A stretch of 64,000 nt of DNA from Eledone cirrhosa (Eukaryota), in contig OZ024755.1 of assembly GCA_964016885.1 (NCBI GenBank), forward strand, positions 310,001 to 374,000, read 5' to 3'. A model generated the notes under the pieces. It was not told the DNA's origin. It did no database searches and worked only from the letters and a program-made list of their open reading frames with translations. The number at the start of each line of letters is the position of its first letter. Positions within the stretch are counted from its first letter, which is position 1. A program made the position numbers and the translations under genes. Positions 23,754 to 49,134 of this stretch are shown piece by piece.

Positions 23754-23826
<73 letters not shown>

Positions 23827-25757: not shown

Positions 25758-25790
<33 letters not shown>

Positions 25791-25919
25791 TTATATAGAT
25801 TAAAAAGAAGAAAACACACATATATATATATATATATACAGACACACACATATATTCATACATACACATATATATATATATATATACATACACACACACA
25901 CATATATTCATACATACAC

Positions 25920-25974
<55 letters not shown>

Positions 25975-26780: not shown

Positions 26781-26815
26781 CTACAGGACTAAAACTGTTT
26801 CATTCAAATCATCAG
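26781..26815 (-). mobile_element. Family B hammerhead fragment with collapsed stem II and no stem I
   Basis: Minus strand reads CTGATGA tttgaat GAAA CAG ttttagtc CTG TA g. Confidence 0.6.
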
Positions 26816-27192
26816 TATAATATATATATATATTGCTATCAGCGAAAGTGGATGTTAAATGCCAATAATAATGATGTATATATATATAAATGTGTGTGTG
26901 TGTGTGTGTGTGTATAGATAAATGTATAATGTATGTGTGCATATGTGTGTATTTGTATGTATCTATACATACATGTATATATATATATATGTATACAGTA
27001 TATACATATACACACAACTTTCTGTTTATGTTTCAATAATGGTTTCTGATTCAGGCACAATGCCAATAATTTGGGGAAAGGGGAAAAGTTGATTAAATCG
27101 ACCCCAGTGTGTCACTGGTACCTTTATTTTATCAAACAATACTACTATCTATTATAAAGTGTCAAAAAGTTCAGATGCTATGTATGTGTGTC

Positions 27193-27223
<31 letters not shown>

Positions 27224-27450
27224 GTGTGTGTGTGTGTATGTATGTGCGTGTATATATATATATATGTGTGTGTGTATACACCGACTGACACATGAGCAGT
27301 TAACATTATAATTTGTACCATACCATGGTTTCATATAAACATCAGCGGTTAAAGTGTGAACATTTTCATCTCTATTGAAAGTGGTCAGCTTTTATACTTC
27401 TAAGAAACATACACTCTATATGTTTGTGTATTATCATCATATACAAATAA

Positions 27451-27484
<34 letters not shown>

Positions 27485-27559
27485 TATAGATCTTCATGCT
27501 TGGGTACACTGTTCTCTATATTAAATTTTTTCCCTCAGCACTTCGTAAAAGTCAAAGAG

Positions 27560-27599
<40 letters not shown>

Positions 27600-27760
27600 T
27601 AGGCATACACCTACATATACATTAGAGGCACATGCCCCCTTGAAGAATGAGAGAGGACAGAGTTGAATAAATTAAACAGCCACTTAATTAGTAGCTTAAT
27701 TGATCAACTGCAGAAAATTATGAGTTAAAATTGACTCCTGTGGGATTTCAAATGAAAATC

Positions 27761-27792
<32 letters not shown>

Positions 27793-27886
27793 GACCAAAG
27801 ATTAATATGGTTAATTGATTACTCAATGAATATAGTTTTACAATAGATTAAAAGCACTCTACAGTTGAAGTTTTCTGGAGTTATTA

Positions 27887-28108
27887 ATATTATTCAGAAT
27901 ATTAATAAATGAAGACATTCACATAATCAAAGTATATGTTTTATTATATATATTTCGAAGGTACTGTGCTGTTTTTTTAGTACGTCCTCAATTCATGTAT
28001 TTTATCTGACGAGGACATACTGAAAAAACAGCACAGTACCTACGAAATATATATAATGAAACATATATTTTGATTATGTGAATGTCTTCATTTATTAATA
28101 TTCTGAAT

Positions 28109-28113
<5 letters not shown>
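27887..28113. repeat. Family C hairpin element: about 103-bp inverted arms and a 21-nt loop
   Basis: 27887-27989 is the reverse complement of 28011-28113 with a handful of mismatches. The right end runs into (TA)n. Confidence 0.92.
27995..28064 (+). ncRNA. Type I hammerhead ribozyme motif, family C (intact core, palindromic stem III)
   Basis: ATG-ta-TTTTAT, CTGACGA (28006-28012), stem II, GAAA (28044-28047), TATATAT A | ATGAAA CAT. Predicted cleavage after 28055 (AUA). Confidence 0.7.
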
Positions 28114-28140
<27 letters not shown>

Positions 28141-28700
28141 AATATATATATATAAGTGAGAGAGAGAAATATATAAATATATATACACACACACTAACAC
28201 GTCTACATAATGAAAGAACAGTTAGTGGAGACAAGGGTGATCTGATATTTAATAAGTTAATAGTAAATTCGAGATTTTAATTAATCACAATTGCAACATT
28301 AGTAATGGGAACAAGTTTTATGTTCATATTACAAGAATTATCTAAATGACTAACGAGCAGAAAGAGACACAAGTGGACAACCTCACCTTTGTAATTAATT
28401 AAGATACATTCAAATGAAATACAGTGGGAAGTTAGATCTTTAACAGTAAAGTAACCATTCTAAACATGTTTCAGTCTTATCAAACCCCATCAGTAAAATA
28501 TTCACGTACATATACACTACACATGTATATATAAAATATAATAGGGTATATATATATATCTTTATTCATTTGATTATGAGTGAAACTATAGAGCAATGGT
28601 CAAGATTAAGAAATATTTTGTGATATATATATATATTCACACACACACTGTGTATTGAGTATTTTCTTTTGTTTCTAAACATAAATGGATTTATATATAT

Positions 28701-28839
28701 ATCTTTATTATATATAGAAATTACTTTTACAGGACTAGAACTGTTTCATTCATATAAAATTTTCAGGAATGTCCTGATGAATTGCCATGAATGAAACAGT
28801 TCTAGTCTTGTAGAAGTCATTTCTATATATGATAAAGAT
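28701..28839. ncRNA. Family B hairpin with a plus-strand hammerhead motif (intact core, weakened stem I)
   Basis: Imperfect palindrome. CTGATGA at 28774-28780, ATT/AAT stem II, GAAA at 28793-28796, stem III ACAG/TTGT, GUA site after 28812. The minus-strand copy has a broken core (CTGAAAA). Confidence 0.6.
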
Positions 28840-28974
28840 GCCTAAACTCTACCAATGTATTGAGTCCCTTTTATCCCCCCCCCCCCACGTGTTGATACAT
28901 GGTAAGGTAGCTTAAAAGTTAACATCATATGTGATCTATTAAGGTCCCACTTTCAGTTCAGTACTGGTCCAGGG

Positions 28975-29205
28975 CCCATCAATGTATCAGTACTACCAGG
29001 ATCAATACTTGTACCACCTTTGTTCATATTCTTCATAGATGACCTGCCAATGCCTGTGAAACTGAGTTGTACCATTACACTGGTAAACCCATGCTGGTTG
29101 TACAAGATGAACAGTGTGGCAGTTGCTAGCTTAAACAGAAGTGTTGTTGAGATGAAAGGTTGTGTAGATGATTACTGGAAGGGAATGCTTGAGGCATTAA
29201 AATAA
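28975..29205 (+). pseudogene. Degraded CR1/L2-type reverse transcriptase fragment
   Basis: VLPGSILVPPLFIFFIDDLP resembles the GVPQGSILGPLLFxIxINDLP RT motif. Confidence 0.55.
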
Positions 29206-30049
29206 AAAGATATGATGAAGCTCATAAGCCCATGAATTGCACAATTATAGATGAATATACCCTAACTCCTGGGGGAGTTGAAAGGTTGCCGTTGTGACAT
29301 ATAGCATTTCTTGGGCATTTTTTAAAACCTGGCAGAGCCCATCTCCTCCCAAGGCCTGAACATATTTCTGGAGAAAGATAGAAAGTGATAGAGAGAAAGT
29401 GAGAAAGAGATATAGAGAAAGAATCGACCTAAATACTAGTCTGGTACTTTTTTTCATCAAGCTTGAAAGGATGAAAGACAAAGTTGAACTGAGACCTCTG
29501 AGAGTTGGAACAAATACAACAAAGCACTTTATCTGATGTTCTAATGACTCTACCAATTTGCTGTCTATGCACAATTACAAACTGTGAAAAAAATCACCTT
29601 GGGGTTCTGGACATAATCATAGACAAGATGGTGTGGGCAACATATAACGCCTGTGGATGCATAACAGATCTCTGTAGAGGCTTCGACAATTAAGCAAACA
29701 TCTCATTTAAGTTAGATTAAAAAGGCAGAATACCATTTTATAAAACATAAATCTAAAACTTTCTGAGTATAGCTGTCTACACTAAAAGAATGAATCAAAC
29801 AGCTGACTGCAGTTCAAAACTTGGAACAATGCTAATGCTGGGTAAGATAGGGTGAAAGTGGTGTAACATGTGTGGCCTATAAGCTACCAGTATAAACAAA
29901 ACCACACATTTATATATCTACAAACACACATATATATGTATGTTATTTGATTCTGAGCTACAATTCAGTTGTATATAGCACAGGGTGTTACTTGCTTTAA
30001 CACCACCACCTAGTCAAGGGATGCTTTTAGCAGAGTTCATTTTTGTTGT

Positions 30050-31480
30050 AAACATTTGTGGTAGGCACTCAGCAAGGAATTTCTCTGACCACTCAATGCA
30101 ATGCCCCCAACCCCAGATGCCAAAAGATAATTCTCCTCCTTTCCTAACATCCACGAACTGATACGACTTACAACCTACACATTACTTACTAACACACAGA
30201 CTCCACCTCCTGTTCCTCTCCATCACACAAATTGCTTAACCGCTGGATATTGGCAACAAAGACTTCCAGTTACCGAGGCTTAAAGTCCTCCCCTTATACT
30301 CCAAACTCCTACCAATTACCAACAACTCTTCAACCATCTTCATTTCTATACTGAGGTCATCTATCTCAGCAACATCTTTGAAGAAGGGTGAACTAACTCC
30401 AATGTGAAGAATTCTTCTTGTTATTCCCACACATCTTACACTGATGCTGCCAGTATACATACTCAATATTTTGCAATTCCCAGCCATATTCCATCAGAAT
30501 TAACTAGGCATGTTTCACATCCTACACACAACAAAACTTTACTATCATCACATGAGTCCCAAGTGATTCACTTATAACTACACCCTACTTCTGCACTACC
30601 CCTAATTATGAATAACACAACTAAACCCTTTAATATCTCTACAACTATGAGGCCTCACAATCACTGAGGATCTCTCATGACAATTCACACAGATTGTAAG
30701 TTCTTCCATAGTCCAAGCTGCTACTGAACCTTTTGGTCCTTTACCTAAAGACTGTCTATCAATAGAATCCTCTTATTTCATTTCTCAATCATGGTGGTTC
30801 TCTGATACTCTCGCGGTGATACCTTTGCTGCCTGCTTTACATCAAACTCTACATTGCAGAGATGAGATAAACCTCTTCCCAAACTACTTAATCCCATGGA
30901 AATATTTCAATCTTTTGAAACATTGTCATTCCCAAGAAGATAATCCAGCTCAACTCGCCATCTATGATCCTATCACACTAATGGAGATTAACAATATCTT
31001 ACAGCACCATAAGTCTATTTTTTTCCTTAATGAGTAACAGCTGTTTTTGTAAAGCTAAATCAGTTCCTCCATTGGAGACCTACTCTGCTATGCCACACTG
31101 TACTGAGCTCTTGCCCTAAAGTAAATTAGTGAAAGCAGTGTTATTACACTCAACATCAGCAAATCCTTCAAGTGCAAACCTGCCAAGTCTGCCATTTATG
31201 TGTTCAGTCCCTCTCACATCTCCTGGACCTCATATACTCTCTCATACAACAATGATCTTACTTGTTATCAACCACAGCATGTAACCTGAGCCTTCACCCC
31301 TCTCCCCAAATTTTAGGCCTTACTATCATTGAGTAGGTCTCTGGTGTACGGACAACCTTAATATAGAGCATCACAAAGACTAGCTCTTCTCTTGAGAGTC
31401 AGAAAATACCTCAGATCTCAACTATAACCAATAATCTACAAAGTTAAGCTGAGACAACTGATCCCACATTTGGGATGCTA
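30050..31480 (+). pseudogene. Highly degraded LINE (L2/CR1-like) remnant
   Basis: C/T-rich coding-like stretch with LNISKSF (similar to LDISKAF) near 31149 and RLALLLRVRKYL near 31377. Many stops. Boundaries are approximate. Confidence 0.4.
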
Positions 31481-31483
31481 ATG

Positions 31484-31519
<36 letters not shown>

Positions 31520-32703
31520 GCTACTACAAAAGGTTACTGAATGAGGAAAATTCACGAGAGGGAGAGAGAGAGACTGCTGTATACAGGTCCAACAGATGGA
31601 CCAGGCTATTGACATTGAGAGGAATATGGTTGAAATGGCCATTAATAATATGACAGCAGAGGAGCGCAGCAAGACCAGGGAGAGTCACTGAGATGGTAAA
31701 TAATAATAAAAATAAAAGACATAACATTGAAGTTATTTGGATTGTCAATCATGTGATACAAGAAGACATTCTCAATGACCAGTATAGTAAAATCTATCAA
31801 CTACTACTACGGTAAATGTGATGCTTGAGAAAGAAACAACTTCTAAGACATCAAACTAATGAACCAAATAAAGTAACAGATAATATTGCAGCAGAATAAA
31901 CTAGAAACGAACATGGCACAAGTACAAAATGGATCTGTTTTGTATCAAGATGCAATACCTATATATATCTTGTTTCTCGGTCTCTTTTTTATGCATTTGA
32001 TATCAGTTGCGAGAATACTGCCTTAAAAGGTCTTGTTTAATTCATGCCAACATGGAAAACTGATGTAAAACAGATGATATATACAGACACATACGACTGT
32101 GTTAAGATGTTTGCTTCACAACCACATGGTTTTCAGTTCAATAACACAATATGTCTTGTACTATAGCCTAAGACTGACCAGTGTTTATATTGGTAAAGGG
32201 AAACTGTGCAGAAGACCACCCTGCATATATGTGTGTGTGTGTGTGTGTATGTGTGCCTGTGGGTGTGTGTGCCTGTGTGTCATCAATCTGACACCACTTG
32301 AGCAGAAAGTGAATACTGTGGGATGATATGTAGAAGGAAGTGTGGAATGAAGTGAATTATAAATGTATTATTGAGCCTATATGGAGGTGGTGGCGGGTGG
32401 AAACTAGTGATTAAGTGACGTGTGAGGCTGGAAGATACAGGAGAATCAGTAAAACATTTGAAAGGGAGCAGAAGTGTGTTTGTAATGAGAAGGCAGGAGA
32501 ATGGGTGTGAGCAAAGATGTGTGAGAGGGTGGGTATACTTCGATGTGTACCTCACAGAGTACAAATGCATACATGCGTACATATGTATGACAAAGTATAT
32601 TTTAAGAGTAGGTAATTTCTGTTGTGTATGTAACTAAGTGTGTGTGTGTGTGAGAGAGTATAACTGGATACAAGTGGATGAACACAATCACAGTTTTCAA
32701 TAT

Positions 32704-32907
32704 TTAACCCTTTTGATACCCAGTTGAAACCTGCTGGGATTCTATCATACAAAGCTGTTCATTTTAAAATGTAAATAGTTCTCTAAACCCCTTCCACCAT
32801 AATTTTATATAAGAATATATATTAAGTTTCAAACACTAGTTTAATAATTGCTCCAAAATCTTTTGATTATTTTAAAAATCATTTAAAAGTGATAATGAAA
32901 TGGTTAA
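32704..32907. mobile_element. TTAA-flanked MITE family (piggyBac-like ends), representative copy
   Basis: ttaacccttttgatacc...gaaatggttaa. Related copies at about 10585-10830, 20130-20325, 21140-21340, 44545-44785, 45350-45690, 51820-51980, 53222-53485 and 61510-61670. Confidence 0.6.
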
Positions 32908-33332
32908 GAAAAACTAAAAACAAACACACAAAAAAATTAATGAAATACAAAGAAAAATCATTTTTTGATTTCTCACTTTTCTGACAATTCAAAAAATTGA
33001 TTCTTTAAGAAAGATCCTGTCATTAACCTGAGCCTCTGACAAATCATATTCACTTAAAGTAGGGATCACTTAGAACAGGTATCAAGTTTACAAAATATCC
33101 ACTGTGAAGATAAAGTTTCATTTAACAGTCTTTAGTCATTCATGAAGATATTTAGAAATTGATAAATTTTAAACACCATATTTAACTAACACATTTTAAA
33201 TGTACAGTATGTGTGTGTTGCAAAAAGGTAGTAAAAATGATGATGATGATGATGATATATTCAATTTTTTAAAGATTAACATTCTCATCAATTGAAAATG
33301 TTTTTCTTTAAATCGGATCTAAATCTATTGTG

Positions 33333-33380
<48 letters not shown>

Positions 33381-33817
33381 AGAGAGAGAGAATGATTATT
33401 TATGTTTTCTTGCGCTATGTTCTTCTCCATAAGAATCTTCATGTTTCCTGAACATATAAATGCCTAAATAAGAGATAGCTATTGAAAATTAAACTCCCAT
33501 TTATATCAATTGACACACATTGCAGACATAAGAGAAGCTAGATGTTAAAAAGAAACCACCACAATATCACCAGTTTCTAGCACACAAAGACATATAATAA
33601 TGTAGAATATGGTGAGATTTTTCTTACTAAAACACTGCTCAACTCTCAGAACATACAAATGTGGTTACTTAGCATGCTAGAAATAGTAGTCAATTAACAT
33701 TCATACTCTCCTAAAATAAATAACACATTGGATAATGCTTATGTTTTTTTTATCAATTTATTTATTTATTATGGTTTAGTGTGCGCTGTGCCCATGATCC
33801 TTTTCAAGGTCTCTGAA

Positions 33818-33868
<51 letters not shown>

Positions 33869-36340
33869 AAATATCCTTAAGCCAGAGAGACCTGGCTTGA
33901 ATGTTTGCTACAGAGTAGCCTCTGTTAAAGCCCCCCAACACCACCAAAAGGCAAAGTGGTGATTGTTAAACTGGGTGACAGATTAACTCAAACTCTCAAG
34001 TAAACTAAAATGGTATTTGCAATGAGGAAGTACCAGGACAAATACTAACAATTCCACCACCGGTACTGAGAGAATGAAAAGTAAAGTTGATCTTGGCAAC
34101 ATTTCAACTTAAGATTACAAAGAATCAGAACAAATACCATGGACAGGGCTGGATTAACTGTTTTTTTGTTTTTGTTTTTTCGGCAGACATTATTAGCAGT
34201 CTTTGAAGTATTTAAGGCTTCAAAAAGATTTAATCTGGCCTTGACCACAAAACATTTCCTCCAATGCTTTAACAAGCATCTTATAATCCTAGATACATTA
34301 GAAAACATGGCAAGATGGTCATGGCTGGAGTACATTTCACAACAGACCTGCTGATGTGTGTGTGGTGGGGGACATCAACAACACCAATATGTCAACCATT
34401 TCACCGTTGAAATCTCAATAATCAATAATTCAGAAGACAAATTTAAATTTATTTTCTTTTTAATTTTCATATTCACTTACCTCTGTCTATCTTTTTTTGT
34501 TTCTCAGCTGTAAGAAGTACTAGATACTTCTTCTAGTCTGCTATGGCTTACTAGTTCTATACAGACGTTTAAAATGATTAAATAGATGCTATTTAATTAA
34601 AGGCTATTTGACCTATTCACTGATATATAGGCTCATACAACTGTTTAACTGAGTCCATTGGTACCTATAATACTCCCCTACAAAGCTGGATGAACCACAA
34701 AGCAAAACATGCACAAATGTAGGGTATCGAGAGAAGAGGGGCACCATTTTATTTAAATTAATTCTATTTGTTATAAAAAAAATAAAATCACTGACTTCTA
34801 CATTCATTCTCTTGTTTTGCCCTTTATTTCATCTTTCTCTTCTTTACAACTTCTTGTTTACTTTCAGTACTTAGGGACCCCAAATCACTTAATCTCACCT
34901 GGTCTATATATTCCAAATCTGATTAGATTATAGAAATTGTATACTCACCAAATAGGTAGAAAAATACACTCTTCTCACTCTTAGATTTGGGGGCACAATA
35001 ACAACAAAATGATGTACAAGCTCTGAATACAACCAAAGTAGTGTTGTGTGTTTTGGTCAAAACCTCACTGTATGACCAGTAGCAATATATGGTGGACTCA
35101 TACTGCCATTAATAGAAAGACTTTTCCAAATGGGTATTAGCATTCACATGTTTAAAACACAAACACATACATATGTTTGTGTGTGTATGTATATATATAC
35201 ATACATACCTGTATTACATTAGATATTTTTTCACTGCTCTTTCTACATTTCTACACAAGTACACAATATTTGTTTAAAAGGTTACAAAATCTGTTGACTA
35301 CCCTCTTCAACCCCACCATCAACCCCACCGTCAACACTACCATCAACCCGAGCATCAAGTAATGCCAATACTTTAAATGAGATAGGGTTAAGTAAATGAA
35401 ATAGATAAAATCAATACCTGTGAGAATTGTACAATTATTCAATAAAAGTACACAAACACATACATCATATATACACATATATATATACACATATATATAC
35501 ATCATATACACAAACATAAACATAAAAAAATATATAGTTGAAAGGAGTTCAATGTTTATCTGGTTACTATAATGAAAGTACAAGTTTTTAAAAAAGCAGG
35601 GTTTTTATCAAAGGGAGTTCTTTTTTCAAAGCTTAACAAACACACATTTCTCCATTGAGAATAAAGAGCAGAAGCTAGTTTTCAATACACAGTCCTTGGG
35701 TTTGTTAACAGCCGAAGCAAAAATCATTATTTATTTAGATACTACCGATCTACTAGAACATCTATTAGTACTATGTTTACGTTTTAATAGTTAAACTACT
35801 AAACCTACCAAAGATAGACTTGACTTATCTGATATCTCCTTGGTAAGCAGAACATAAAATGAATAAATAAATAGATAAATGTAAATAAATAAATAATTAT
35901 ATATACATAAATATATGCAAATATGTATATGTATATATATATATATATACACACACATTCATATATATATATTGATAGGTGTGTGTGTATATATATATAT
36001 ATATACACACATTCATATAAATATATATATATATATATATTCATAGATGTATATATATATGATATATAGTGTGCAATGTTGAATATTTTTATAATTTTTT
36101 TTCAAGTTTTCTATTCATTTTCCTGAACAATAGAAATCTCTGTGGAATTCGGTAAATATGCTAATATAGACAGAATAAGAAGAAGTTTCAGGTCAACATT
36201 AAAATAAATGTGTTTCACAAATGGAAGAAGCCATATATATTCTATTTGAAGTTTAATTGAATATTGTCTTATCTTGAAGAAAATAGATAAATAAATAAAA
36301 GAAAGAGAAAAAGAAAAAGAAGAAATGCTAGATAGATAGG

Positions 36341-36416
<76 letters not shown>

Positions 36417-37326
36417 GGTAGATAGAGAGATAGATAAAGAGAGAGAGATATAGGCAGGTAGATAGAGAGAGAGAGAAAGAGAGAGAGATACAGGCAGGTA
36501 GATAGAGAAGATATTAAAATGTAGACCAGAATGAAAACAGAAACAATCTTTATATTCATATTCAATTGTTAAAATGGTGGAAGAGTAACTGCTGCATGTT
36601 TTGTGTACCTGTACTGAGTAAGGAACAACACATGAAAAGATAACATCAAGTCTCATATATATATATATATTTCTTGGTATATGTTTCTCTCTCTTTGTTT
36701 CTTTGTCAATATATCACTTTCCATCTTTCTCTAATAAAATAATATATGACATATCTAGCTAGACTTACTAAAATAGTTTAACTTATTCAATTTAGCAAAA
36801 GTACTTGGAATTCTATGATGACAAATTGGTAGAGTTGTTAGAGAAGCTGGATTAAAAGCTTTCTAGTTTTCATTTTGGCTCCCTTTCACACTTAAAATCC
36901 TGACAACTTTGCCTTTCATCCTCGTTTTTTTTAAATTTTGCTAAACTGTTTAACTCATTTAATTTAGCAGAAGTTAAGGGTTGACACACTTGTTTTCTGA
37001 AGACCTTCTGCTGTCCAGCTCTCTTGAGTGTGTCTTACCACCATCATCAGAGTTTTAAAGTAAGGGTTTGGCAGAATCAGAGTCTTAGATTACATATTTA
37101 CAGTATTTGTTCTGGTTCCTGGAGCTCAACTCGTGCTGAGTTCAACTCCCAGAACAGAGGCAGTGAATTTACAGAATTAATGGACAAGATACTTTGCAAT
37201 ATCTGTTCCAGCTTTCTGTGTTCCAAGTTTAAATTCTGTATCTTGTAAAAACCTAAGAAATAATGGTCACTACCTACATTGCTTGAATACTCAAATTGCA
37301 GCACAAAATTGGTATCATGCTTCTGT

Positions 37327-37399
<73 letters not shown>

Positions 37400-38269
37400 G
37401 GGGGGGGGGGGCAGTGGTCTAAAAGAACCAACACAAAATGGAGTGAAGGTGCTTTAGATAAGTAGATAGAGTGAAAAAAGATAAAGGGAAAAAGGTCTTG
37501 GTGATAAAGAGAGAGCAGGGGAGAGAGAGAGAGATAACATTTTAAAATCAGTATTGGTGAGGGTGGGGGGAAGAGTGACAAACACCAACACTACTGCTAC
37601 TGCAGTAAATTACATTTACCAAAATTTGTTTAAAGTAATTTCAATTTCTTCCTTTTCTTTCATAGTAAAATGTAGTTTATATAAGTCAAGCTTCTTTCAG
37701 GAAGATTTTCTCTTAAATGGCAAAAAAGCAGCATACTACTCAAAGAAGGATGTAATGATTTTTAATGAGCGATAAATTCTTAACGATTAGGATGCGCAAT
37801 TAATTAAAACTGAGAAATCAATGCACATATTAAAGATAATCGTTCCATCTCTTTGAAAAGTTTAAGTCAGTGTTCCCTCTAGATATATTTATAATTAAGT
37901 CAAAATAATAAAAAAATACATACATCCCATGATTCCGTGAGTGTTTTCCTTATATATGAATGCATGCATGTACACACATTATTTATATATATGTATATAC
38001 ACACACATATATGTATATATATGCACACACATATATATATATATATACATATATGTGCGTGTAAAATGGTGGTTGTTGTTGTTGTTTACTTACAGTAAAG
38101 TAGAAAAGCTACAACAAAAACACAAAAACCACAAAAAATAAAACAGTGTTAGTAAAGCCATGCAACAAAGCTAATGCTTTAATCTGCATTGATCTTTCCT
38201 GTTTTGTTGTTTTTTTTTGGTCCATGTTCTCCTTTTAAGTTGAAAATGAAAATACAGTAAAGCCTTCGT

Positions 38270-38296
38270 TACTAACTTATATATTTTCTCTTTCAG
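38270..38296 (+). promoter_or_regulatory. Branch point, polypyrimidine tract and 3' splice acceptor of the nested gene's coding exon
   Basis: TACTAAC at 38270-38276, then ttatatattttctctttcAG. The exon would begin at 38297, 202 nt before the ATG. Confidence 0.7.
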
Positions 38297-38498
38297 AATC
38301 ATCTAATGATAGAGAAATTGCAGATGAAAAAAAGAAGAACAAACAACAACACAAAAACAAACAAAAACATATATAAATATATATATATATATATGTATGT
38401 ATATATGTACGTATAGTGCCTCAGAAAAACGTGCTTGAATTAAAAAAAAAAAAAAAACAGATAAAAACAATTTAAAGATAAACCAAAAAAAAAAAAAA

Positions 38499-40682
38499 AT
38501 GTCAAGAATGGATTACAAAGCATTTTGCAAACACTTTGCATGTTGGATTAATATTCTACTATTGTGTTACAATACAGTGTCTTCAGCTGTACGTTATCAT
38601 GATACGACAACTGATAGGAGCTTGGAATCATTGCCAGCACAATATAAGAAAATACCAATTACTACAGATAGATTTCCAAATAGAATCAAGAATGTACAAC
38701 ATCTTAGGGTAATGGAAACTGCAAGTTATCATCTACCAGCATTTAAAGATAAGCAGTTGGCACTTAACAACCTTCCAAATTTGATAGCTGCGAGCACAGA
38801 AACACCTTTACATTCTAGAAAGTACCATCAGCACAACAGTAACCACCAGTGGGCTTATAATAAACATAAAGAACGGAAAACTTATGGAAGTAGTCCACAT
38901 CTAAATCTCTCCCTTCGAGACATGAAGACTAAACATGATTCAAAATATTCTAGCAAGTGGCGCCATCTAAGTGCTCTTGGAATACATTCCAGTACAGTAA
39001 AAAGTCCAGAGTTAAGTAAGCTTTCAGCTGGAAATGTTACAGCTTCAGGTCAATCTTCATTTAAGACATTGTTTATTGATGAAGAAAAGCCAGAGACTAG
39101 TCAAGATAATGTAAAGGAAAAAAGGAAAGTTAAAGATAGAATTCTAACATCGTTACATTCAGTTAGAACAACAAACAACATTTCCACAGCTCAGCATATG
39201 GCTTCATCATCAACACTTCAACAAACAGTTTCAGACACTATGTTGGCATTGGATACACAACACAAACAACCCAATAGAGTAATATATCTGTTAACACCAA
39301 CACCAGTGCTTAGTACCCTGACAACAGTGTTTAATGAAACTCAGTTTGAAAACTATACCACAACCGAAGAGATGCCTATCAAAGAGGTAAATTCCAGTGA
39401 TATTCCTGAATATTTAGCTCAGCCACCATTCCTTTTAAATGTCAATGACAAGGACACTTTCAAAGGTTCTCACAGTAAAAAAGAAAGAACATTGTCGACA
39501 GACAAAGACTTCGATCAAAACTTACCTCCCCTTGCACAACCAGCACCGAGCACTGATACTCGATATGGTGCATCAAGGCGAAAACATGATAGTAAAAATA
39601 TACCCTATACAGACCCACCTAAATATGGTACACAACGACCACCAAGGAATATATTATCCTTAGATGTTCATTCCCATCATATTCCAAAAGGAATGAAACC
39701 TACTTTGATGCCTTCAAGAAGTGGTTTGCTTCATTTAACGGAAGATTCAGGAACCACTAACAGTCATAAATCCTTAGTTACAAACAAAATCAAAGGTTTT
39801 ACTAAAAAGGGTTTAAATGGGAAAATGTTGGCTGCAGTGACCACAGAATTTTTGAGACCCTCAGAAATGATACCTGATATACTAATAGTCCCAACAGAGT
39901 CCCAACACACACACCCAACACCAACGAAACATGGATTTATAAAACCTATATTTTCTACTTCTACTTCAGTAACTGCAGCATTATCTTTAAAATCCCAAAA
40001 TAAACATCTTGTTCTAAGTGCCACTGCAACTCTAGACCCTTCTAAAATGACACATCTGTGTACAAAACCTTGTTCTGATGACGCCAACTGCAAATGTTGC
40101 ACAGACAAGCAGATGGTTTCGGTGGAATCAACAGAGCAAGTCATACCAAACGAACCTATGGACAATCTCACACCCCAGACTGATGTATCAACTCAAAAAA
40201 ATCTTTCCAAAAGTTTGACACTCAGTGCAGGTTTTGGTATAGGGATGGGGTGTTTAATTGCTATCTGGCTTATTGTTGGGCCAGTAGTGTGTCTTATCTG
40301 TCATATAAAAGACAAGGCAAAGAAGGAACAAGACATGGACAAAAAATACAAAGCAGTACCACCGGTACAAGAAAACACCATTACCGAAGCACTTGTCATG
40401 GATGAATTGAACAAACAATTTTCAAAGATGAAAACCAATAGAGAAAATGAATATTTGTGGCTTGCAAGAGACAAGTTAGAGTTAGTTAGCCTTTCAAATG
40501 CAGATTCATCAACACAAACAACAAACCAATATTTAGCATCACCTACATATACGTCTGCTTTGTCATATAGTTCTAAGAAATGGTTAGATGATAGTGATGA
40601 CGAAGATTATGAAGACTATGATGATGATAGTGAAGATGAAAAGAAAACTAATCTTAAATATGTACCAACAGTTAGTGTCTGA
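38499..40682 (+). CDS. 727-aa predicted single-pass type I membrane protein with an S/T/P/H-rich mucin-like ectodomain; family not recognised
   Basis: 2184-nt uninterrupted, non-repetitive ORF in AT-rich DNA. N-terminal hydrophobic signal (WINILLLCYNTVSSA), Cys cluster CTKPCSDDANCKCC, TM at about aa 577-601 followed by HIKDKAKK, acidic tail, and C-terminal VSV. Confidence 0.88.
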   Translation: MSRMDYKAFCKHFACWINILLLCYNTVSSAVRYHDTTTDRSLESLPAQYKKIPITTDRFPNRIKNVQHLRVMETASYHLPAFKDKQLALNNLPNLIAASTETPLHSRKYHQHNSNHQWAYNKHKERKTYGSSPHLNLSLRDMKTKHDSKYSSKWRHLSALGIHSSTVKSPELSKLSAGNVTASGQSSFKTLFIDEEKPETSQDNVKEKRKVKDRILTSLHSVRTTNNISTAQHMASSSTLQQTVSDTMLALDTQHKQPNRVIYLLTPTPVLSTLTTVFNETQFENYTTTEEMPIKEVNSSDIPEYLAQPPFLLNVNDKDTFKGSHSKKERTLSTDKDFDQNLPPLAQPAPSTDTRYGASRRKHDSKNIPYTDPPKYGTQRPPRNILSLDVHSHHIPKGMKPTLMPSRSGLLHLTEDSGTTNSHKSLVTNKIKGFTKKGLNGKMLAAVTTEFLRPSEMIPDILIVPTESQHTHPTPTKHGFIKPIFSTSTSVTAALSLKSQNKHLVLSATATLDPSKMTHLCTKPCSDDANCKCCTDKQMVSVESTEQVIPNEPMDNLTPQTDVSTQKNLSKSLTLSAGFGIGMGCLIAIWLIVGPVVCLICHIKDKAKKEQDMDKKYKAVPPVQENTITEALVMDELNKQFSKMKTNRENEYLWLARDKLELVSLSNADSSTQTTNQYLASPTYTSALSYSSKKWLDDSDDEDYEDYDDDSEDEKKTNLKYVPTVSV

Positions 40683-41213
40683 AAATAAAAAAAAATGACT
40701 AATAAAATATCTATCAGTAAAGAATATTTCCCCAAACAAAATCTTTTTTTTTCATGTTTTTTTTCTATGGGGAAAAAAAAATCAATCATAAGTCGTTTGT
40801 AGACTGTGCAGACAAATAAATGATTGTTGGAAAATAATATACACATAGGAGGAGACAAACAACTGGAATGAAGAATAAATTTGGTTTGAAAGAAACCAAT
40901 AACTGATAGAAAAACAAGTACAAATATTTTTTAAAGATTTACTATGAATTTCATCAAGAATTGGAGGAAATATGAAAACAGTTGCAAACAAAAAAATTAT
41001 AATAATAAATAAAATGGGTTTAGTGTTAATCATTATGATCATCAGGTATGAAGTTTTGCAGAAGAACACTTCTAGAAGACAGATATTCCTGGAATGAATT
41101 GAAATGGAAAAGAACAGCAACATCAATGACTACATAATTGTTACAACACAGGAGAAATGAGTGGAAGTTCTTACTTTTGAATCCCTTATGACAATGACAG
41201 TTTAAATTATGTA

Positions 41214-41264
<51 letters not shown>

Positions 41265-41989
41265 GGAAATAAAATTAAAAGCGGTACTGTTTAGTATGTT
41301 ATGTTAAAGGAAGTCTGTTTTAATTTCATATTTACTTTACCTACTGCACACATAAACCTACACATATATATACATACATACATACACACACACACATATA
41401 TATATATATGCGCTGTATATAAAGACATGCACATACACACCTAAATATACCTATATCTTCTGTTATACACATAGTATTTACACATGCATTTATTGTGTGT
41501 ATAAATAAAAGTGTTTACACACATATATATATATCTATATCTATTTTAGATATGTATGTATGTATGTATATATGTACACATGCCTATATCTACTGTGTCT
41601 ATGTAAAATATGCATCTGCATACAGTGACACATATCTATACCTATTTTGTGTATAAAAACATATACACATACCTCTATATCTGCTATGTGTATGTAACAC
41701 ATACATAAACACGTCTACTGGGTATAGAAACATATACACCCATATCTGTATCACCTGAGTGTATAAATACAAGTGCATACATACACACACACACACACAC
41801 ATATATATATAAATACATATATATATACATATATATAATGCTCTGACGCACAAATATATATGATATGCATATAAGCAATAATTATACATACATATCTGCT
41901 GTATGTATAAAGACATACATCAGTTTCTCTTGTATATATACATGTACACACACACACTACTATATATGGAATGAGTATAATACAATACA

Positions 41990-42365
41990 CACACCACTAT
42001 ATATACTGTGTATAACACACACAACACTATATATGATGTGTATAATACACACGCCCTATATATGATGTGTATAACACAAACAACACTATATATGATGTGT
42101 ATAATACATACAACACTATATACGATGTGTATAATACACACAGGCCCTATATACGATGTGTATAACACAAACAACACTATATACGATGTGTATAACACAA
42201 ACAACACTATATACGATGTGTATAATACAAACAACACTATATACGATGTGTATAACACAAACAACACTATATACGATGTGTATAATACACACAACACTTT
42301 ATACGATGTGTATAATACACACAACACTTTATACGATGTGTATAATACACACACGCCCTATATAT
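41990..42365. repeat. 30-bp minisatellite (acaacactatatacgatgtgtataacacaa), about 12 copies
   Basis: Direct tandem units, which explain the repetitive ORFs on both strands. Confidence 0.95.
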
Positions 42366-42517
42366 GCTGTGTGTATAAAGATACTCATACCCTACTGTCA
42401 TTTAATTTTCTCAAAATGTTGTTTAAAATGAAATAAAAAAAAAACAACAGCAAAAACAACTAGAACAACAAGCCAAAACAACTAAGTGTTGTAGCAATAA
42501 ACAAGAGAATGTAATTA

Positions 42518-42565
<48 letters not shown>

Positions 42566-42667
42566 TCAAATTATTATTTCACAGCACAATTCTTCTTCTT
42601 CGTCTTCCTACATGAAAATTGTTGCTAACCATAACACAGTAGCAGGAGAGAGAGTAATATATATATA

Positions 42668-42758
<91 letters not shown>

Positions 42759-45700
42759 GGTGATGAGCTGTGTGAAAATCAGGAGATTCTAGCTTAGTTG
42801 CTAGCAGACACCTATCAACTCAAAACACTACAAATGTCTAATCAACAAAGAAATTTGAATATACATGCAATTCAATATGTCACAAAGACTATTGATTATT
42901 CTTTTTTCTTGTCACACATCCACACACACACACACACACCTATATACTCCCACCCCCACCGTTTCTTCCCGTCTCCCCCACCGTGCCGGAAGGCCACAAA
43001 TTCCAGGATGTGATCCTGCATATATTTATTATATAAACTGATCTTTCAAGAAAGAAAGGAAAGAAAGAAAGAAGCCAAAGAAAATGAGAAAATGTTGTTA
43101 GCAAGTAAATTATAAAAAGTCTCTAACAAGTGTTGTACATTGAAACTACTTACAGAAGATGATTCTGGAGTATTTTGTGAATTAATAACATTAATGATAA
43201 TAAGGATGATGATAAATAAATGAATAACAAAAGAAAAAAGATAGACAAGTTCTATTTGCACATATGTACATATATGGACAGCATATGTACATATATGGAC
43301 ATATATGGACAAATATGTATACATACATGTATATACATGAAAAGCACAAACTATACACTAGATGTTCATTTATTAAGTAGAAGTGGATTGGTTATTTTTA
43401 AGTCTATATAACTTTTTGATTTGCTATAAAAGGGAATTTTTCTGGTTAATAAAAATGAAAGAAAAGTTTTAGAGTGAATGGGGGTGGGGAGAGAGAGAGT
43501 GGCAGATACTCTGAGAAATATTAGAACAAGGTTTAAACTTTCAAATTTTATTTTCTTTTGTAATATTTAATAATAAACATTTTATTGTTAAACGATTTTC
43601 TTCATGTCATGTTTTTTTTTATTTGTTACTTGTAGCCATCTTTTTACCAGAAGTCTTTATAAATTAAAACTAACTTTTTGTAATAAATCTATCAATCATA
43701 ATTTATAAACAATCATATTTGAAGTGATCACCAATAACATTATAATAATCACCAATAACAATATTGATCAAGGGCAGAAAAATATACACAGAAAATGTCT
43801 GAGATTTAGATTGTTTTTCTTTTTTAATTAAGAATATAAGTTGTATGGGGAGAATATTTGGGTTAGGAAGGATTGAAGGATGAATTGGCAGAGTTGTTAG
43901 AATGACAAATAGAATGCTTTGCAGTATTCTATTCGTTCCAGCTTTCAGTTCTCTGAGTTTAAATCCTGCTAAGGTCAACTTTGCCAACCTGCCGAGGTCA
44001 ATAAAGAAAGTACCAGTCAAGTTCTGGGTCAATTCTTCATTTATATCTCTTTCTTACTTCCTCTCTCTCATTCTCTATCGTTCTCTAAATGGAATGAAAT
44101 TTACTGCGTTCAGACTTGGAGAGGGATTGACTCTGACAAGAAATGCTGTGTGCCACTACAGCACCACTCAACTCTCCCAGGAGATACATCACCTACAGTG
44201 TAGAAGTGGTCATTGTCAGAGGTGATGGCAAGTAGGTTGTTGATGTACAAGAAAAAGAGTTTGGGAGAGAAAAGCAAATCTGGGGAACACCAGAGTTGAT
44301 AGTGTGTCAGAAAGAACTCCATCAGAATTAATATAATATAAAGAGGAGGAAAGAAGAATTCTATAATGTTGGTAGAGTTCCTTTTGGCAAGGGACCAAAA
44401 TGATCAGCAGCAGATTTGAAGGCAGGACAGCTTGATGGATGTGAGATGCATGGGGACATCATTTGTGGTTTGGATAATGGCTTTGCAGGAGTTGTAGTGC
44501 TGGATAAGTGATGTATAGTTTTAGCAGGAGAGATTTGCATCTGGTTCTAAATCTGGTCCCAATGTTTGAAGCTGTTTATTTTAAAATGTTTATAGTCATT
44601 TAAAAACCTTCCATCATAATTTTATTTGAGAATATTTCTAAAGTTATGTTCCAAACACTTGATTGATAATGAGAAAATCAATTTTATTAATTACTAAATC
44701 CCTCTAAATTCTCTTTCATTTTCAAAATTATTTGAAAATTATAGGTAGAGTCTTTCGTTAGAAATACAGTAACGAATGGTTCAAGAAATTGTTTAGAAGT
44801 ATACAGTTTCTTAATTCAAAAAGCTAATTTAAACAAATTAATAAACTATTTACAACATAAATGACATCAGTAAACACATATCACAAGTATATTCAATAGA
44901 TCAAAGTTATCTGAATTTTCTGCAGAAGAAATAGAAAATGATTGATAATGAACTGTATTCAATTAAATTGAGCTGAATTAAGAAATGATTCATATTCTTC
45001 ATTAATTTAGTAAAACCTTGCTTACAAAATATTCCTTCTGTGACATTTTAAATATTTTAGTAACTTTTTTGTTACCATATTTCTAATAAAAGAATTTGGC
45101 AATGACTTTGAAATTAATTAAGAATTTGGAAGGATTTAGTAATACAACTAATATTCTTAATTTAGTAAAAGCTTGCTCACAAGATATTACTTCTGTGACA
45201 TTTTGAAATATTTTAGCAACCTTTTTGTTACCAAATTTCTAATAAAAGACTCTGCCTCTGATTTTTAAATAATTTTGAAAATAATTAAGAAATTGGAGGG
45301 ATTTAGTAATACAACTTCTTCATTATTCACCCTTTCATGGTTGTATTTTTAATGAAATGCACTCTATTTCAATTAATTAATGAAAAATTTTGAGGGATTC
45401 AGCAAAATGATTAACTATCCCATTACTAAGATAGTAACTGATATAAAATTATGGAATATTTTAATTTAAATTAGAAGAATGTATAAAGTAATGGGTGGTT
45501 TTGTTTCACAGAACCAGAGCTGGTTTTGGCCAGGTTGGTACCAAAATGTTAAATTATTGATTGGAACAAAACAAAACTCCTATCATAAAATTATGATGAA
45601 AGGTTTTCAAGTAAACATAAACACTTAAAAGCAAATAGTTTTGTATTGTAAAACCAGGGGCAGTTTCAGGCAGGTTGGTATCAAAAGGCTTAAACCTATA

Positions 45701-46064
45701 TTTCAATTATTAACAAGTGATTCTGAATCAACAGTTAATACTCGAACAATGATTTCTTTTTCCATCATACTAATTCAGAGGGGAATATATATATATCATC
45801 ATTTCATTTTACGTCCGCTTTTTCCCTGCTTGCAAGGGTGGGACGGAAACTGATTCTGGCTTGATTTCTACAGCTGGATGCCCTTCCTAACATCAACCTC
45901 ATTTACAGTGAGTGGTGGGTGCTTTTTTGCCGTGGAATGATAGAGACCCCAGTCCCTATCATCTCATTTCTACAGCTGAGTAAACTGGAGCAATGTGAAA
46001 TAAAGTGTCTTGCTCAAGTACACAACACATCACCCGGTCTGATATATATATATATATGGTTTAA

Positions 46065-46185
46065 TTTGTGCATTTGCACTCTGTATGTGAGACCTTCATT
46101 CAGGCATCTATAAAACAAAGATGGCTGACGTTTGTTTTATAGATATCTGTATGAAGGTCTTGCACACGGAGTGCAAATGCACAAA
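46065..46185. repeat. Hairpin with 55-bp inverted arms and an 11-nt loop
   Basis: 46065-46119 pairs with 46131-46185 with about 7 mismatches, mostly transitions. Confidence 0.85.
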
Positions 46186-47053
46186 CCAATGGAAATAAAT
46201 GGTAGTAACGAAACCATGTTGAAGATAACTACACTATAATATTTCAGTTCTGTTTATTGTATAGAGTGCTCTGTTCCCCTTATCTGTTCTACGGAATCAT
46301 TCAACATTACTTATATATATATATATATACCAAAACAAAGACAGTCTGCACTTGATACGGAGGTTCTAATTCTGAATTATGAAATATTAGAGTAAAAACT
46401 ATTGTATTTGATTGTATTTCATATTTTACTATAGTTCCACCATTATATTTGATAAGGGAAGAGGCATAAGTAATAGTTGGCATCAGGAAGGGCATCCAGA
46501 CATAGAATGCTGCCCAATGAATTATTTACCCAACCCATGCCACCATGGAACAGTGGATGTGATGATAATAATGATGGTGATTCACAGTAATATAAATAAC
46601 AATTCTAATATAAAAATTCTGTTGCCAAGACAACAAAATCTAGAATTTGTTTTTAAAAATTTGAAAAGGAGAAATGAAAAAAAAAAAAGTTAAGTTTTAA
46701 TTACAATAATAGTAAAAGAGAGCTTAGGGGTTCTGAGATTTTATTTTGACTCAGTAAAAATTTGAAAATTATTCCTTTTTAAAAAGACGTGTTATAGGAA
46801 GGTTTTAACTAATCATATTGAAAACAGTTCAAAAGAGATTTAGAAAAGTTCTATCAGTTTTATTGATTTTAACGCTTTCGTTTATCAATTATAAAATTAC
46901 ATTTGTTTTTCTAACAGGCAAAGGAATAATAAAACTGTGTAGTAGGAACATACCCAGCTAAAATACCAATATGCTAATTCTTTCCACAGTTACTACTAAG
47001 TTCAATTTACTTTACATGTATCGGAAACACAAACACATATACACACACGAAGG

Positions 47054-47153
<100 letters not shown>

Positions 47154-48249
47154 TAGAGCAACTCTTAACAAATTCATATTATTGTAAGACTCTCAGGGTT
47201 ATAATTATTATATGTGAATATTTTAACATTTTATTGAGAGATAATTCTAGAGTAGAGAGTTAAACTGAAGAAGTAAGAATGTAGCTTTCGATACAATCTG
47301 TTATTAACAATCATTACTGCGCTCTTTTATTTGTTGTTGTTGAAGAAACTGTTGATATATCCTCAATAACGTACCAGTTAACTACTGGGGTTAATGTAAT
47401 CAACTTCTCCCCCCCCCCCCCCTGAAATTGTTGGCCTTCAGTCTAAATTAGAAACCATATATATATATATGTATATATATATATATTATTTTCTTTTTAC
47501 ATCTTTTTATTGGTTTTCAGTGTTTAGTATATGGCCATACTGGGGCACAACATTGAAAAGATTTTACTTTTGATATTAATCTCAATTCACTGTATTATTG
47601 GATTTGTCTCTTTCTTACTCTGGAGGCAAATTAAATTGTCATTGCCGCCACAAATATTATAACCTGTATCATCATCATCATCATTTCAGTCATTAGACTG
47701 TAGACTGCTGGGGCATCATCATCACATCACCATTTTTGTTAAAGTCAATCGATCACTTTCACTGATATGATTGACTGTAGACATGCTGGGGAACCTCATC
47801 ATCATCATCATTGCTATTATTAATATTATTATTATTATTATTATTATTATTATCAGTGTGATAATTTTTATCAAAGCCGATCAATCAGTTTCTTTCACTG
47901 TATTGATACTTGATGCTGCTCTAGCAAAACTATTGTTTCAGACAACAAATGATTTGATAAAACAAAAACAACTTTAGCAACAACCACAACTATTTCATCT
48001 TCTTCAGTTTAACATCAATGAAATGGAAGTTATATTGTTCCATTCTGTCTTATAACGAGACAATAAAACAACAGGAAAATATAAAAAATTATCAATATTG
48101 TCTCAACATGATATATTATATAATAAAGTGTGTTAAAGTTCCAGAGGATATTGGACAGACAAGTAAACAGGGGATTCCTTGCTTAAGTCTTGGTATTGAC
48201 ACTACAACTGTCTCTCAGTTTATCCAGCTGAGTAATAATAATAGTGTGG

Positions 48250-48567
48250 TTAGAAAGCCTGACATTGTTATTGAAGATGAATGACAAGGCAAATATTGTG
48301 GATATTGCTTCACTGTGGGACCATGGGGTGAATGAGAAGGAAAGGTAGAAAGTTGAGAAATACCAGGAGCTGAAGAAAGAAATCAGGAAACTGTGGAGAA
48401 TCAGATACAAAGAAGTGGTTTTGATTGTGGTTGATGCACTGGGAACAGTTAGTAAAAGGTTGGATAAATGGCTTGAGAAGCTAGGAATTACCATCAGGAC
48501 AGGATTGTTGCAGAAAACAGCTTTGACAGGAACAGCAAGAATTCTAAAGAGGGTGTTAGAAAGTTGA
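48250..48567 (+). pseudogene. C-terminal restriction-like endonuclease fragment of an R4/Dong-type non-LTR retrotransposon
   Basis: RKPDIV...DIA...KVEKYQELKKEIRKLW...VVLIVVDALGTV...LQKTALTGTARILKRVL, with internal stops and a frameshift. Confidence 0.8.
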
Positions 48568-48999
48568 AAGAGAAGGAATGACCCAAAGGACCTTTGGCCA
48601 TTGTTTATAGCTTAGTCCATATGTACTTCCTAGATCTATGTTTAATATCTTATTTTTATTGATAACCTCTTAAAAATCTCTAACAGCTATCTTCAATCTT
48701 AAAACGAAACCCAGCTACAAACACCATCACACCATTAAACTACATATTTTCATCTAAATACTGCAAACCAAAAGTCCTGCTGTGTTAAGCTTCAAGACAG
48801 GTAAAAAATAATAACAAAAAAAAAAAAGAACAAAAACAAATAAACAAAAAAAACACATGTGACAGCAGTTATACAATGCATGACTGAATAGAATATATGT
48901 ATATATGCAACTGCATGCATATCAAATCACAGCATTGCACAGGTTAAGAAAGAGAGAGATACAAATAGATATATATAGATATGTGTAGAATTGACTTAC

Positions 49000-49134
49000 C
49001 ATTGACCCAGTGTCAACAAGTGTCTGTGTGACAATTATGTTAAAGACAGCATGAGAGCGGCTGCTCTCACTGTTCATGTTAGTTGCTGCCACAGTTCTAG
49101 ATTTGTTACCTTCATTCATTAAGTTGTCAATATC
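49000..49134 (-). CDS. KIF13: Internal coding exon of a kinesin-3 motor domain (switch I region), KIF13/Khc-73-like
   Basis: [45 protein letters not shown]. Acceptor tttccttgcAG, donor GTAAGT, 135 nt, phase 0-0. EGNKSRT favours KIF13 over KIF1 (GNKART). Confidence 0.93.

What the first reader, a model, noticed from the sequence alone, without database searches (positions are those of the whole stretch)
38270..40682. Orphan single-coding-exon membrane protein gene nested antisense in the kinesin intron
Seen: an intact 727-codon ORF with a perfect TACTAAC branch point and acceptor upstream, an A-rich start context, and AATAAA motifs downstream. It has a signal peptide, an S/T/P/H-rich ectodomain of about 545 aa with multiple N-x-S/T sequons (NLS, NVT, NIS, NET, NYT, NSS, NLT), a compact 5-Cys juxtamembrane cluster, a Gly-rich TM (GFGIGMG, GxxxG) and a tail of about 125 aa. 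Inference: because the KIF13 motor domain must continue at lower coordinates, this gene lies inside its intron on the opposite strand. No family was recognised, so it may be a lineage-specific surface glycoprotein or receptor.
Basis: partly seen in the sequence, partly recalled or inferred. Interest (0 to 1): 0.72.

Follow-up and report, generated by a model that had tools for sequence, protein, structure and literature searches.

The report
Unnamed surface glycoprotein inside kinesin intron
An intact gene lies backwards inside a 92-kb intron of the KIF13 motor gene of what is likely an octopus; it encodes a predicted sugar-coated, single-pass membrane protein whose membrane and inner parts match an unnamed family in snails, scallops and an annelid worm, so it is not an orphan.

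Summary
The 727-codon ORF (38499-40682, +) is real and single-copy. It lies antisense in a 91,990-bp GT-AG intron of a KIF13 kinesin gene, whose flanking exons I mapped and which join in frame. Orthologues exist in Octopus bimaculoides and O. sinensis (about 80% identical, both 'uncharacterized') and in two unnamed 40%-identical clusters. It is not an orphan: the transmembrane helix and cytoplasmic tail match 24 other proteins, among them abalone, scallop, Gigantopelta and the annelid Paralvinella. The match holds for the tail alone (36 bits, best of 2000 shuffles 11). Only the ectodomain, with its 5-Cys cluster, is confined to the octopus group. No Pfam family, solved relative or paper was found. 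Best reading: a mucin-like type I surface glycoprotein, tethered by a conserved membrane helix and tail with a PDZ-type end. It would work like podocalyxin or syndecan, but it fails both membership tests. Its gene layout parallels EVI2B in NF1. Expression, ligand and whether nesting is conserved remain untested. The branch point and AATAAA motifs occur at chance frequency on their own. Verdict: real gene, undescribed mollusc-annelid family, known kind of architecture; moderate interest.

The parts
38270..38296 (+). Putative 3' splice site of an upstream non-coding intron: TACTAAC branch point, pyrimidine tract, CAG
   Evidence: Sequence; use not shown, upstream exon not found
38297..38498 (+). 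Putative 5' UTR part of the coding exon; five upstream ATGs, TA repeats, A-tract before the start
   Evidence: boundary inferred
38499..40682 (+). 727-codon uninterrupted coding sequence (P0001), single copy in the genome
   Evidence: full-length orthologues with the same start
38499..38588 (+). Predicted signal peptide (aa 1-30)
   Evidence: Hydropathy in all 5 octopus-group proteins; cleavage site inferred
38589..40220 (+). S/T-rich, likely disordered ectodomain with 8 N-x-S/T sequons
   Evidence: AlphaFold pLDDT 28.5 on a 7-row alignment
39630..40034 (+). Six invariant ectodomain blocks of the octopus group (aa 378-512, e.g. TQRPPRNILSLD, PSRSGLLHLTED)
   Evidence: Invariant in 7 of 7 rows of A3; not matched in other family members
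40059..40100 (+). Five-cysteine cluster (aa 521-534)
   Evidence: Kept in the 4 rows of A1; the 17 other members examined have 0-1 ectodomain Cys
40221..40301 (+). Transmembrane helix with G580-xxx-G584, W590, G594-P595, C598-xx-C601
   Evidence: G580, P595, C598 in 29 of 29 rows; confident helix in model
40302..40493 (+). Conserved part of the tail: basic stretch, E636-L637 motif, Y652, E661-xxx-L665
   Evidence: E636/L637 28 of 29, E661 28 of 29, L665 23 of 29, Y652 22 of 29
40587..40640 (+). Acidic cluster with serines (aa 697-714)
   Evidence: Sequence; similar stretch in all 4 rows of A1
40668..40679 (+). C-terminal TVSV, class II PDZ-type end (rule recalled)
   Evidence: PTVSV invariant in 7 of 7 rows
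40684..41009 (+). Five AATAAA motifs; the poly(A) site in use is unknown
   Evidence: near background density
1..48999 (-). Window part of the 91,990-bp KIF13 host intron (G000:C15:358999 to 267010), GT...AG, phase 0
49000..49134 (-). KIF13 motor-domain exon (switch I region) upstream of the host intron
   Evidence: gene identity from a downstream exon

Best explanation
This is an intact, single-copy gene inside a KIF13 intron on the opposite strand, encoding a predicted mucin-like type I surface glycoprotein of an unnamed mollusc-annelid family that likely works as a membrane tether between an outer sugar coat and scaffold proteins under the membrane. Shown: ORF, nesting, orthologues, family-level conservation of TM and tail, turnover of the ectodomain. 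Inferred: a signal peptide sends it into the secretory route; N- and O-glycans stiffen the ectodomain into an extended spacer or adhesion surface; the small-xxx-small TM face packs against itself or a partner; C598/C601 at the inner membrane edge are acylated; the basic stretch and the EL motifs bind cortical adaptors; TVSV binds a PDZ scaffold. The octopus group added its own conserved ectodomain blocks and a 5-Cys knot, likely a lineage-specific binding surface. The nesting is most likely passive lodging in a very large intron.
For: Conservation is concentrated where a tether needs it. Identity of P0001 to the four 40%-group rows is 17-21% over aa 31-370, 54-56% over 371-520, 89-93% in the TM and 55-59% in the proximal tail. 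In 29 family rows G580, P595, C598 are invariant and E636-L637 is kept in 28. A tail-only profile from the 24 non-octopus-group rows scores P0001 36.4 bits against at most 10.8 for 2000 shuffles. All 22 rows tabulated have one C-terminal TM (one, P0035, with a further hydrophobic stretch), an ectodomain of 12-34% S+T and a tail of 31-134 aa. 20 of 29 end in a PDZ-type motif by a recalled rule (13 class I, 7 class II). No Pfam domain at E<=10. Atlas neighbours are all single-pass glycoprotein kinds, scores under 0.9, leads only. Podocalyxin uses this layout: DTHL end binds NHERF, juxtamembrane tail binds ezrin (PMC12922080, passages).
Against: No expression, localisation, glycosylation or binding data. 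S+T is 23%, lower than in classical mucin domains (recalled comparison). 9 of 29 rows, mostly the gastropod and bivalve ones, lack a PDZ-type end, and the motif class differs between groups. The 29 rows hold near-duplicates, so the counts overstate independence. The TM is more conserved than an anchor needs, which fits a partner-subunit role as well. Low pLDDT may reflect the shallow alignment, not disorder. Five upstream ATGs in the presumed 5' UTR could mean the exon boundary is wrong.
Confidence: 0.55

Rival explanations
1. It is a single-pass auxiliary subunit or co-receptor: the conserved TM helix packs against another membrane protein (channel, transporter or receptor), and the ectodomain matters little.
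For: TM 89-100% identical within the octopus group; G580, P595, C598 invariant and W590 in 25 of 29 across molluscs and annelids while ectodomains are unalignable and range from under 200 to over 1000 aa.
Against: No partner is known; the tail motifs are conserved independently of the TM; the octopus group keeps invariant ectodomain blocks.
Confidence: 0.2
2. It is a cycling trafficking protein of TGN and endosomes (TGN38- or TMEM108-like) sorted by a YxxL motif and an acidic cluster; it might even be cargo of the KIF13 motor in whose intron it lies.
For: Y652-L-W-L (YLLL in the 40% group) and a serine-containing acidic cluster occur in all 4 rows of A1. TMEM108 and TMEM154 appear among Atlas leads under 0.9. 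That KIF13A moves AP-1 cargo is recalled, from no call.
Against: Outside the octopus group the Tyr is mostly not followed by xx-hydrophobic and the acidic cluster is absent (alignment). Nesting needs no functional link: about 10% of Drosophila genes are in nested structures (PMC3814207, passages).
Confidence: 0.17
3. It is derived from a viral envelope gene or a transposon, or is a dead retrocopy.
For: Intronless CDS, an A-tract before the ATG and a repeat-rich intron; two viral glycoprotein clusters among Atlas leads under 0.9.
Against: Single copy in 3.0 Gb (counts are floors); no second, intron-bearing parent found by distant queries; only simple repeats around it, no LTR- or TIR-like pair; intact full-length orthologues; no Pfam hit; cellular relatives in two phyla. 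PHROGs and phage records gave nothing, but animal viruses were only covered through the general protein searches.
Confidence: 0.03

Closest known systems
EVI2B / EVI2A / OMG in NF1 intron 27b
   Same: Membrane glycoprotein genes in a large intron on the strand opposite to the host (PMC4171599 passage); EVI2B is a type I TM protein (PMC9953216 passage). A cluster with 17% EVI2B members is an Atlas lead at 0.83. Single coding exon and S/T-rich ectodomain of EVI2 are recalled.
   Different: No Pfam hit; host is KIF13, not NF1; one nested gene found, not three. An analogy of layout, not homology.
CD34 / podocalyxin / endoglycan sialomucins (PF06365)
   Same: S/T-rich ectodomain, small Cys-containing region before the TM, basic juxtamembrane tail, PDZ-type end. 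Several family members end DTEV, DTNL, DTDL, DTAL, close to podocalyxin DTHL (PMC12922080 passages; ends).
   Different: PF06365 does not match P0001 or 20 relatives nor this locus. The Cys cluster is limited to the octopus group, which ends in class II TVSV. The GP-xx-C-xx-C TM end and EL motifs are this family's own.
Syndecan / neurexin tail family (PF01034)
   Same: Divergent ectodomain, conserved GxxxG TM and tail, class II PDZ end; a neurexin fragment cluster is the top Atlas lead for the TM and tail at 0.87. Seven relatives have one acid-flanked Ser-Gly site.
   Different: PF01034 finds two loci over cut-off on C1 and not this one; P0001 has no acid-flanked Ser-Gly site; tail is 126 aa with other motifs.
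Podoplanin (PF05808)
   Same: Weak recurring hits over the stalk and TM: 8 of 20 relatives at E 0.003-0.3.
   Different: All at most 18.5 bits against a cut-off of 30; none for P0001; podoplanin has a very short tail (recalled).
LRRTM genes nested in alpha-catenin introns
   Same: Single-pass surface protein genes on the opposite strand of a large intron of a cytoskeleton-related host (PMC3933685, abstract and outline).
   Different: No LRR domain here; conservation of the nesting across species could not be tested.
RefSeq LOC106874696 (O. bimaculoides) and LOC115211118 (O. sinensis)
   Same: Full-length orthologues, about 80% identical, same start and end.
   Different: Annotated only as uncharacterized; no paper in the library names them.

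Membership tests
Opposite-strand nested gene | Coding sequence wholly inside one intron of a host gene on the other strand | tested here: met
   Host exons at C15:359134-359000 and 267009 join in frame across a 91,990-bp GT-AG intron; ORF at C15:348499-350682. From genomic sequence; no spliced read seen.
Opposite-strand nested gene | Own promoter and 5' exon also inside the intron | not testable with these tools
   No run on record as RNA; upstream exon not located.
Opposite-strand nested gene | Nesting conserved in other species | tested here: inconclusive
   Only one relative's DNA was obtained (L015, 8 kb): no kinesin exon in it, too short to decide.
KIF13 (host) | Motor domain closest to KIF13 among kinesin-3 | tested here: met
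   One exon: KIF13B 108.5 bits, KIF1A 81.2, KIF14 76.
Orphan / taxonomically restricted gene | No homologue outside the lineage | tested here: not met
   Homologues in gastropods, bivalves and an annelid; tail-only control; reciprocal hits E 6.7e-10 and 1.1e-7.
CD34/podocalyxin (PF06365) | Match to the family profile over TM and tail | tested here: not met
   No hit; genome search gives one unrelated hit at E 0.92.
CD34/podocalyxin (PF06365) | Mucin ectodomain, Cys-containing membrane-proximal region, class I PDZ end | tested here: inconclusive
   P0001 has the first two but a class II end; 13 of 29 rows have class I ends but lack the Cys region.
CD34/podocalyxin (PF06365) | Binding to NHERF or ezrin | not testable with these tools
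   Needs experiment.
Syndecan (PF01034) | Match to the syndecan/neurexin tail profile | tested here: not met
Syndecan (PF01034) | Acid-flanked Ser-Gly glycosaminoglycan sites | tested here: not met
   0 in P0001 by a simple rule; present in 11 of the 24 other rows.
EVI2A/EVI2B | Match to EVI2 Pfam profiles; location in NF1 | tested here: not met
   No Pfam hit; host is KIF13; Atlas 0.83 is under its mark.
Podoplanin (PF05808) | Score above the curated cut-off of 30 bits | tested here: not met
   Best 18.5 bits in a relative; none in P0001.
Viral env / transposon gene | Many copies, terminal repeats, match to env or transposase profiles | tested here: not met

The most novel reading that the evidence does not exclude
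An undescribed lophotrochozoan family of mucin-like single-pass proteins fills the role that CD34/podocalyxin sialomucins have in vertebrates, possibly as their remote homologue. Coleoid cephalopods rebuilt its ectodomain with a new motif-and-cysteine module, and the gene has sat in the same KIF13 intron since before molluscs and annelids split, perhaps as cargo of that motor.
Probability: 0.1. Interest if true: 0.7.

Novelty: new member of a known kind. Interest (0 to 1): 0.38.

Why it matters
It turns an apparent cephalopod orphan into a member of an unnamed mollusc-annelid family with a definable signature (G-I-xx-G-C...W...GP-xx-C-xx-C, then EL motifs) that no Pfam model covers. It is a clear case of false orphan status caused by a fast-changing ectodomain. 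The invariant octopus-group ectodomain blocks are a concrete candidate for a cephalopod-specific surface interaction, and a single-copy, single-exon CDS is easy to knock out or tag. The nested layout itself is common and not surprising.

Tried and rejected
Expression: no RNA holder listed (4 runs, 1 study, none on record as RNA). Laying them: X1-X3 confirm the ORF sequence without gaps; X4 (88 million letters, kind unknown) covers most of the ORF and on to 41206 but not 37201-38406, which would fit a transcript assembly, yet it also has a hole inside the ORF and no joint, so it is no evidence. A wider lay over the kinesin exon was not obtained, so X4's nature stays open. Dimer of TM plus tail: no answer, score 0.00, controls not folded; no evidence either way. 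Full-length AlphaFold model unusable (pLDDT 28.5). TM-tail model (pLDDT 74.5, two helices) found no PDB fold match; VIA searches were not run on two helices. PDB sequence search with the family profile: best E 0.26. Atlas on aa 370-545: no usable hit. Metagenome scan with A1: 593 pattern matches, 0 relatives; with A4: 1 of 60. Paralogue searches: only this locus, plus one junk hit at E 0.33. Region search with the annelid protein added one member, P0050, and no new phylum name. Papers: accession searches gave 0 (the tool drops underscores); topic searches gave nothing on this gene (listings only); some searches sought comparators. PMC9712504: 3 supplementary files searched, 0 hits, 1 file unreadable. 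bioRxiv 10.1101/2022.06.11.495763: passages and section 33 read; its uncharacterized markers do not appear to be this gene; its supplements could not be seen and may hold expression data. Earlier findings of the scan: none. dN/dS not computed: no orthologue DNA held.

Full report
1. Observation. The ORF is as described: 38499-40682 on +, 727 codons. The other five frames have 27-72 stops and the chance of such an open run is about 4e-23. Three runs of one sample give a contig across 38506-41206 (to 40913 in one) with at most one differing letter and no gap; these may be the source sample and are not independent. The acceptor (TACTAAC 38270, pyrimidine tract, CAG 38296) is present. TACTAAC alone (13 seen, about 13.6 expected) and AATAAA (2.1 per kb) are at background level, and the 202 nt before the ATG hold five upstream ATGs. 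Eight sequons, the C521-C534 cluster, a TM at about 579-601 and a 126-aa tail are confirmed.

2. Host gene. The window is G000:C15:310001-374000 of a 3.0-Gb genome. Kinesin motor exons lie in order on the minus strand at about 387725, 378793, 359134-359000 (window 49134-49000), 267009, 247505 and 247255. The intron between the third and fourth of these is 91,990 bp, begins GTAAGT, ends TTCCAG, and the exons join in frame. A downstream exon matches KIF13B (108.5 bits) ahead of KIF1A (81.2). The ORF lies 8.3 kb inside this intron on the other strand. In the 149 kb scanned, the other frames of 170 codons or more looked like simple repeats or transposon remnants by eye. The organism is inferred to be an octopod from the orthologues.

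3. Close relatives. The first protein search gave 3 hits among 7992 candidates: O. bimaculoides LOC106874696 (79%, full length; its cluster holds O. sinensis LOC115211118) and two unnamed clusters, P0003 (46 members) and P0004, about 40% identical over the whole length. I take the latter for other coleoids; no call names them. Conservation is uneven (7 rows): 17-21% over aa 31-370, 54-56% over 371-520, 89-93% in the TM, 55-59% in the proximal tail, with invariant blocks such as TQRPPRNILSLD, PSRSGLLHLTED, VMDELNKQF and PTVSV. This pattern is what selection on a protein gives; dN/dS was not computed. The gene is single-copy by protein and DNA searches, whose counts are floors.

4. It is not an orphan. 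A profile of four rows against 1.84 billion representatives gave 19 hits, 17 of them new, at E 1.8e-11 to 7.7e-4, all over the TM and tail. A profile of TM-tail fragments gave 17 hits, 7 new; a region search added one. Named members are Haliotis rubra, H. rufescens, Gigantopelta aegis, Argopecten irradians, Ylistrum balloti and the annelid Paralvinella palmiformis; the rest are unnamed. Two controls argue against mere hydrophobic likeness. A tail-only profile built from the 24 non-octopus-group rows scores P0001 36.4 bits and its four close relatives 31.8-36.9, against at most 10.8 for 2000 shuffles. Two distant members searched against the whole genome hit this locus at E 6.7e-10 and 1.1e-7 with nothing else credible. 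In 29 rows (P0050 and redundant cluster members left out; near-duplicates remain) G580, P595 and C598 are invariant, G/A584 is in 29, W590 in 25, C601 in 25, E636-L637 in 28, E661 in 28. The ectodomains of the other members do not match P0001 (best E 0.1) and the 17 examined have 0-1 Cys. The tree on 115 columns recovers the octopus group (99/98) but leaves the deep order open. One relative's contig, L015, holds an intronless 939-codon frame for ectodomain, TM and tail, so the one-large-exon layout is not limited to cephalopods; it shows no kinesin exon but is only 8 kb. The outer range of the family is a floor: the searches were word-limited or used a narrow profile.

5. Mechanism. Shown: one N-terminal and one C-terminal hydrophobic stretch, an S/T-rich ectodomain without a recognised domain, a long TM-to-juxtamembrane helix and a second tail helix in a model at pLDDT 74.5. 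Inferred: secretion, glycosylation, surface display, packing through G580-xxx-G584, acylation at C598/C601, adaptor binding at the basic stretch and EL motifs, PDZ binding at TVSV. 20 of 29 rows end in a PDZ-type motif by a recalled rule; 9 do not. I put 0.55 on a surface tether, 0.2 on a TM-bound auxiliary subunit, 0.17 on a TGN/endosome cycling protein (YxxL and acidic cluster, seen only in the octopus group), and 0.03 on a viral or mobile origin. That it is a real gene of this family I hold at above 0.9.

6. Comparison. It works most like podocalyxin/CD34 or syndecan by layout (PMC12922080, passages) but matches neither profile. Podoplanin hits are weak and under cut-off. The gene arrangement parallels EVI2A, EVI2B and OMG in NF1 (PMC4171599 and PMC9953216, passages) and LRRTMs in alpha-catenin introns (PMC3933685, abstract). 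Nesting is common: nearly 10% of Drosophila genes are in nested structures and 71% of nested genes are on the opposite strand (PMC3814207, passages). No paper in the library names the gene or six relatives' accessions, and topic searches showed none. Subscription papers and most supplements were not seen.

7. Verdict. Observation confirmed; nesting confirmed from genomic sequence; orphan status rejected. A new, unnamed family within a known kind of protein and a known kind of gene arrangement. Expression and function are untested. Interest 0.38.

Noticed in passing
G000:C2:134302189-134303169, C10:24054200-24055180, C28:62371623-62372762, C3:125247824-125248657: Four kinesin motor domains match almost full length in one open frame (335-889 aa), so they are intronless kinesin genes or retrocopies.
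   Followed up: no
P0021, P0028, P0034, P0043-P0046: A subgroup of the family (7 of 7) has one acid-flanked Ser-Gly site near the N-terminus and ends in DTEV: candidates for transmembrane proteoglycans.
   Followed up: partly
window 49686-51183 (-): A 260-aa frame that looks like a LINE reverse transcriptase C-terminal part, preceded by a 213-aa Cys/His-rich frame; likely a LINE remnant in the previous KIF13 intron. Recognised by eye; Pfam gave no hit at E<=0.1.
   Followed up: partly
window 6659-6867 and 7876-8084: Inverted repeat arms of 209 nt, 98% complementary, 1008 nt apart: likely a non-autonomous DNA element.
   Followed up: partly
window 14854-15168 (+): 105-aa frame that resembles a DNA transposase C-terminus by recall; no supporting Pfam hit.
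   Followed up: partly
window 58364-58918 and G000:C15:309444-310241: G-rich simple-repeat tracts that read as long Gly-Ser-Asn or Gly-Asp-Glu frames; probably non-coding repeats.
   Followed up: no
window 41967-42375: A 30-bp tandem array about 1.3 kb after the stop codon, possibly within the 3' UTR.
   Followed up: no
P0035 versus P0048: The Haliotis rubra protein ends early and lacks the EL motif that H. rufescens has; likely a frameshift in the assembly or model.
   Followed up: no
L015:1999-4818: The relative's large exon has no signal peptide at its start, so that group probably has a separate 5' coding exon.
   Followed up: partly
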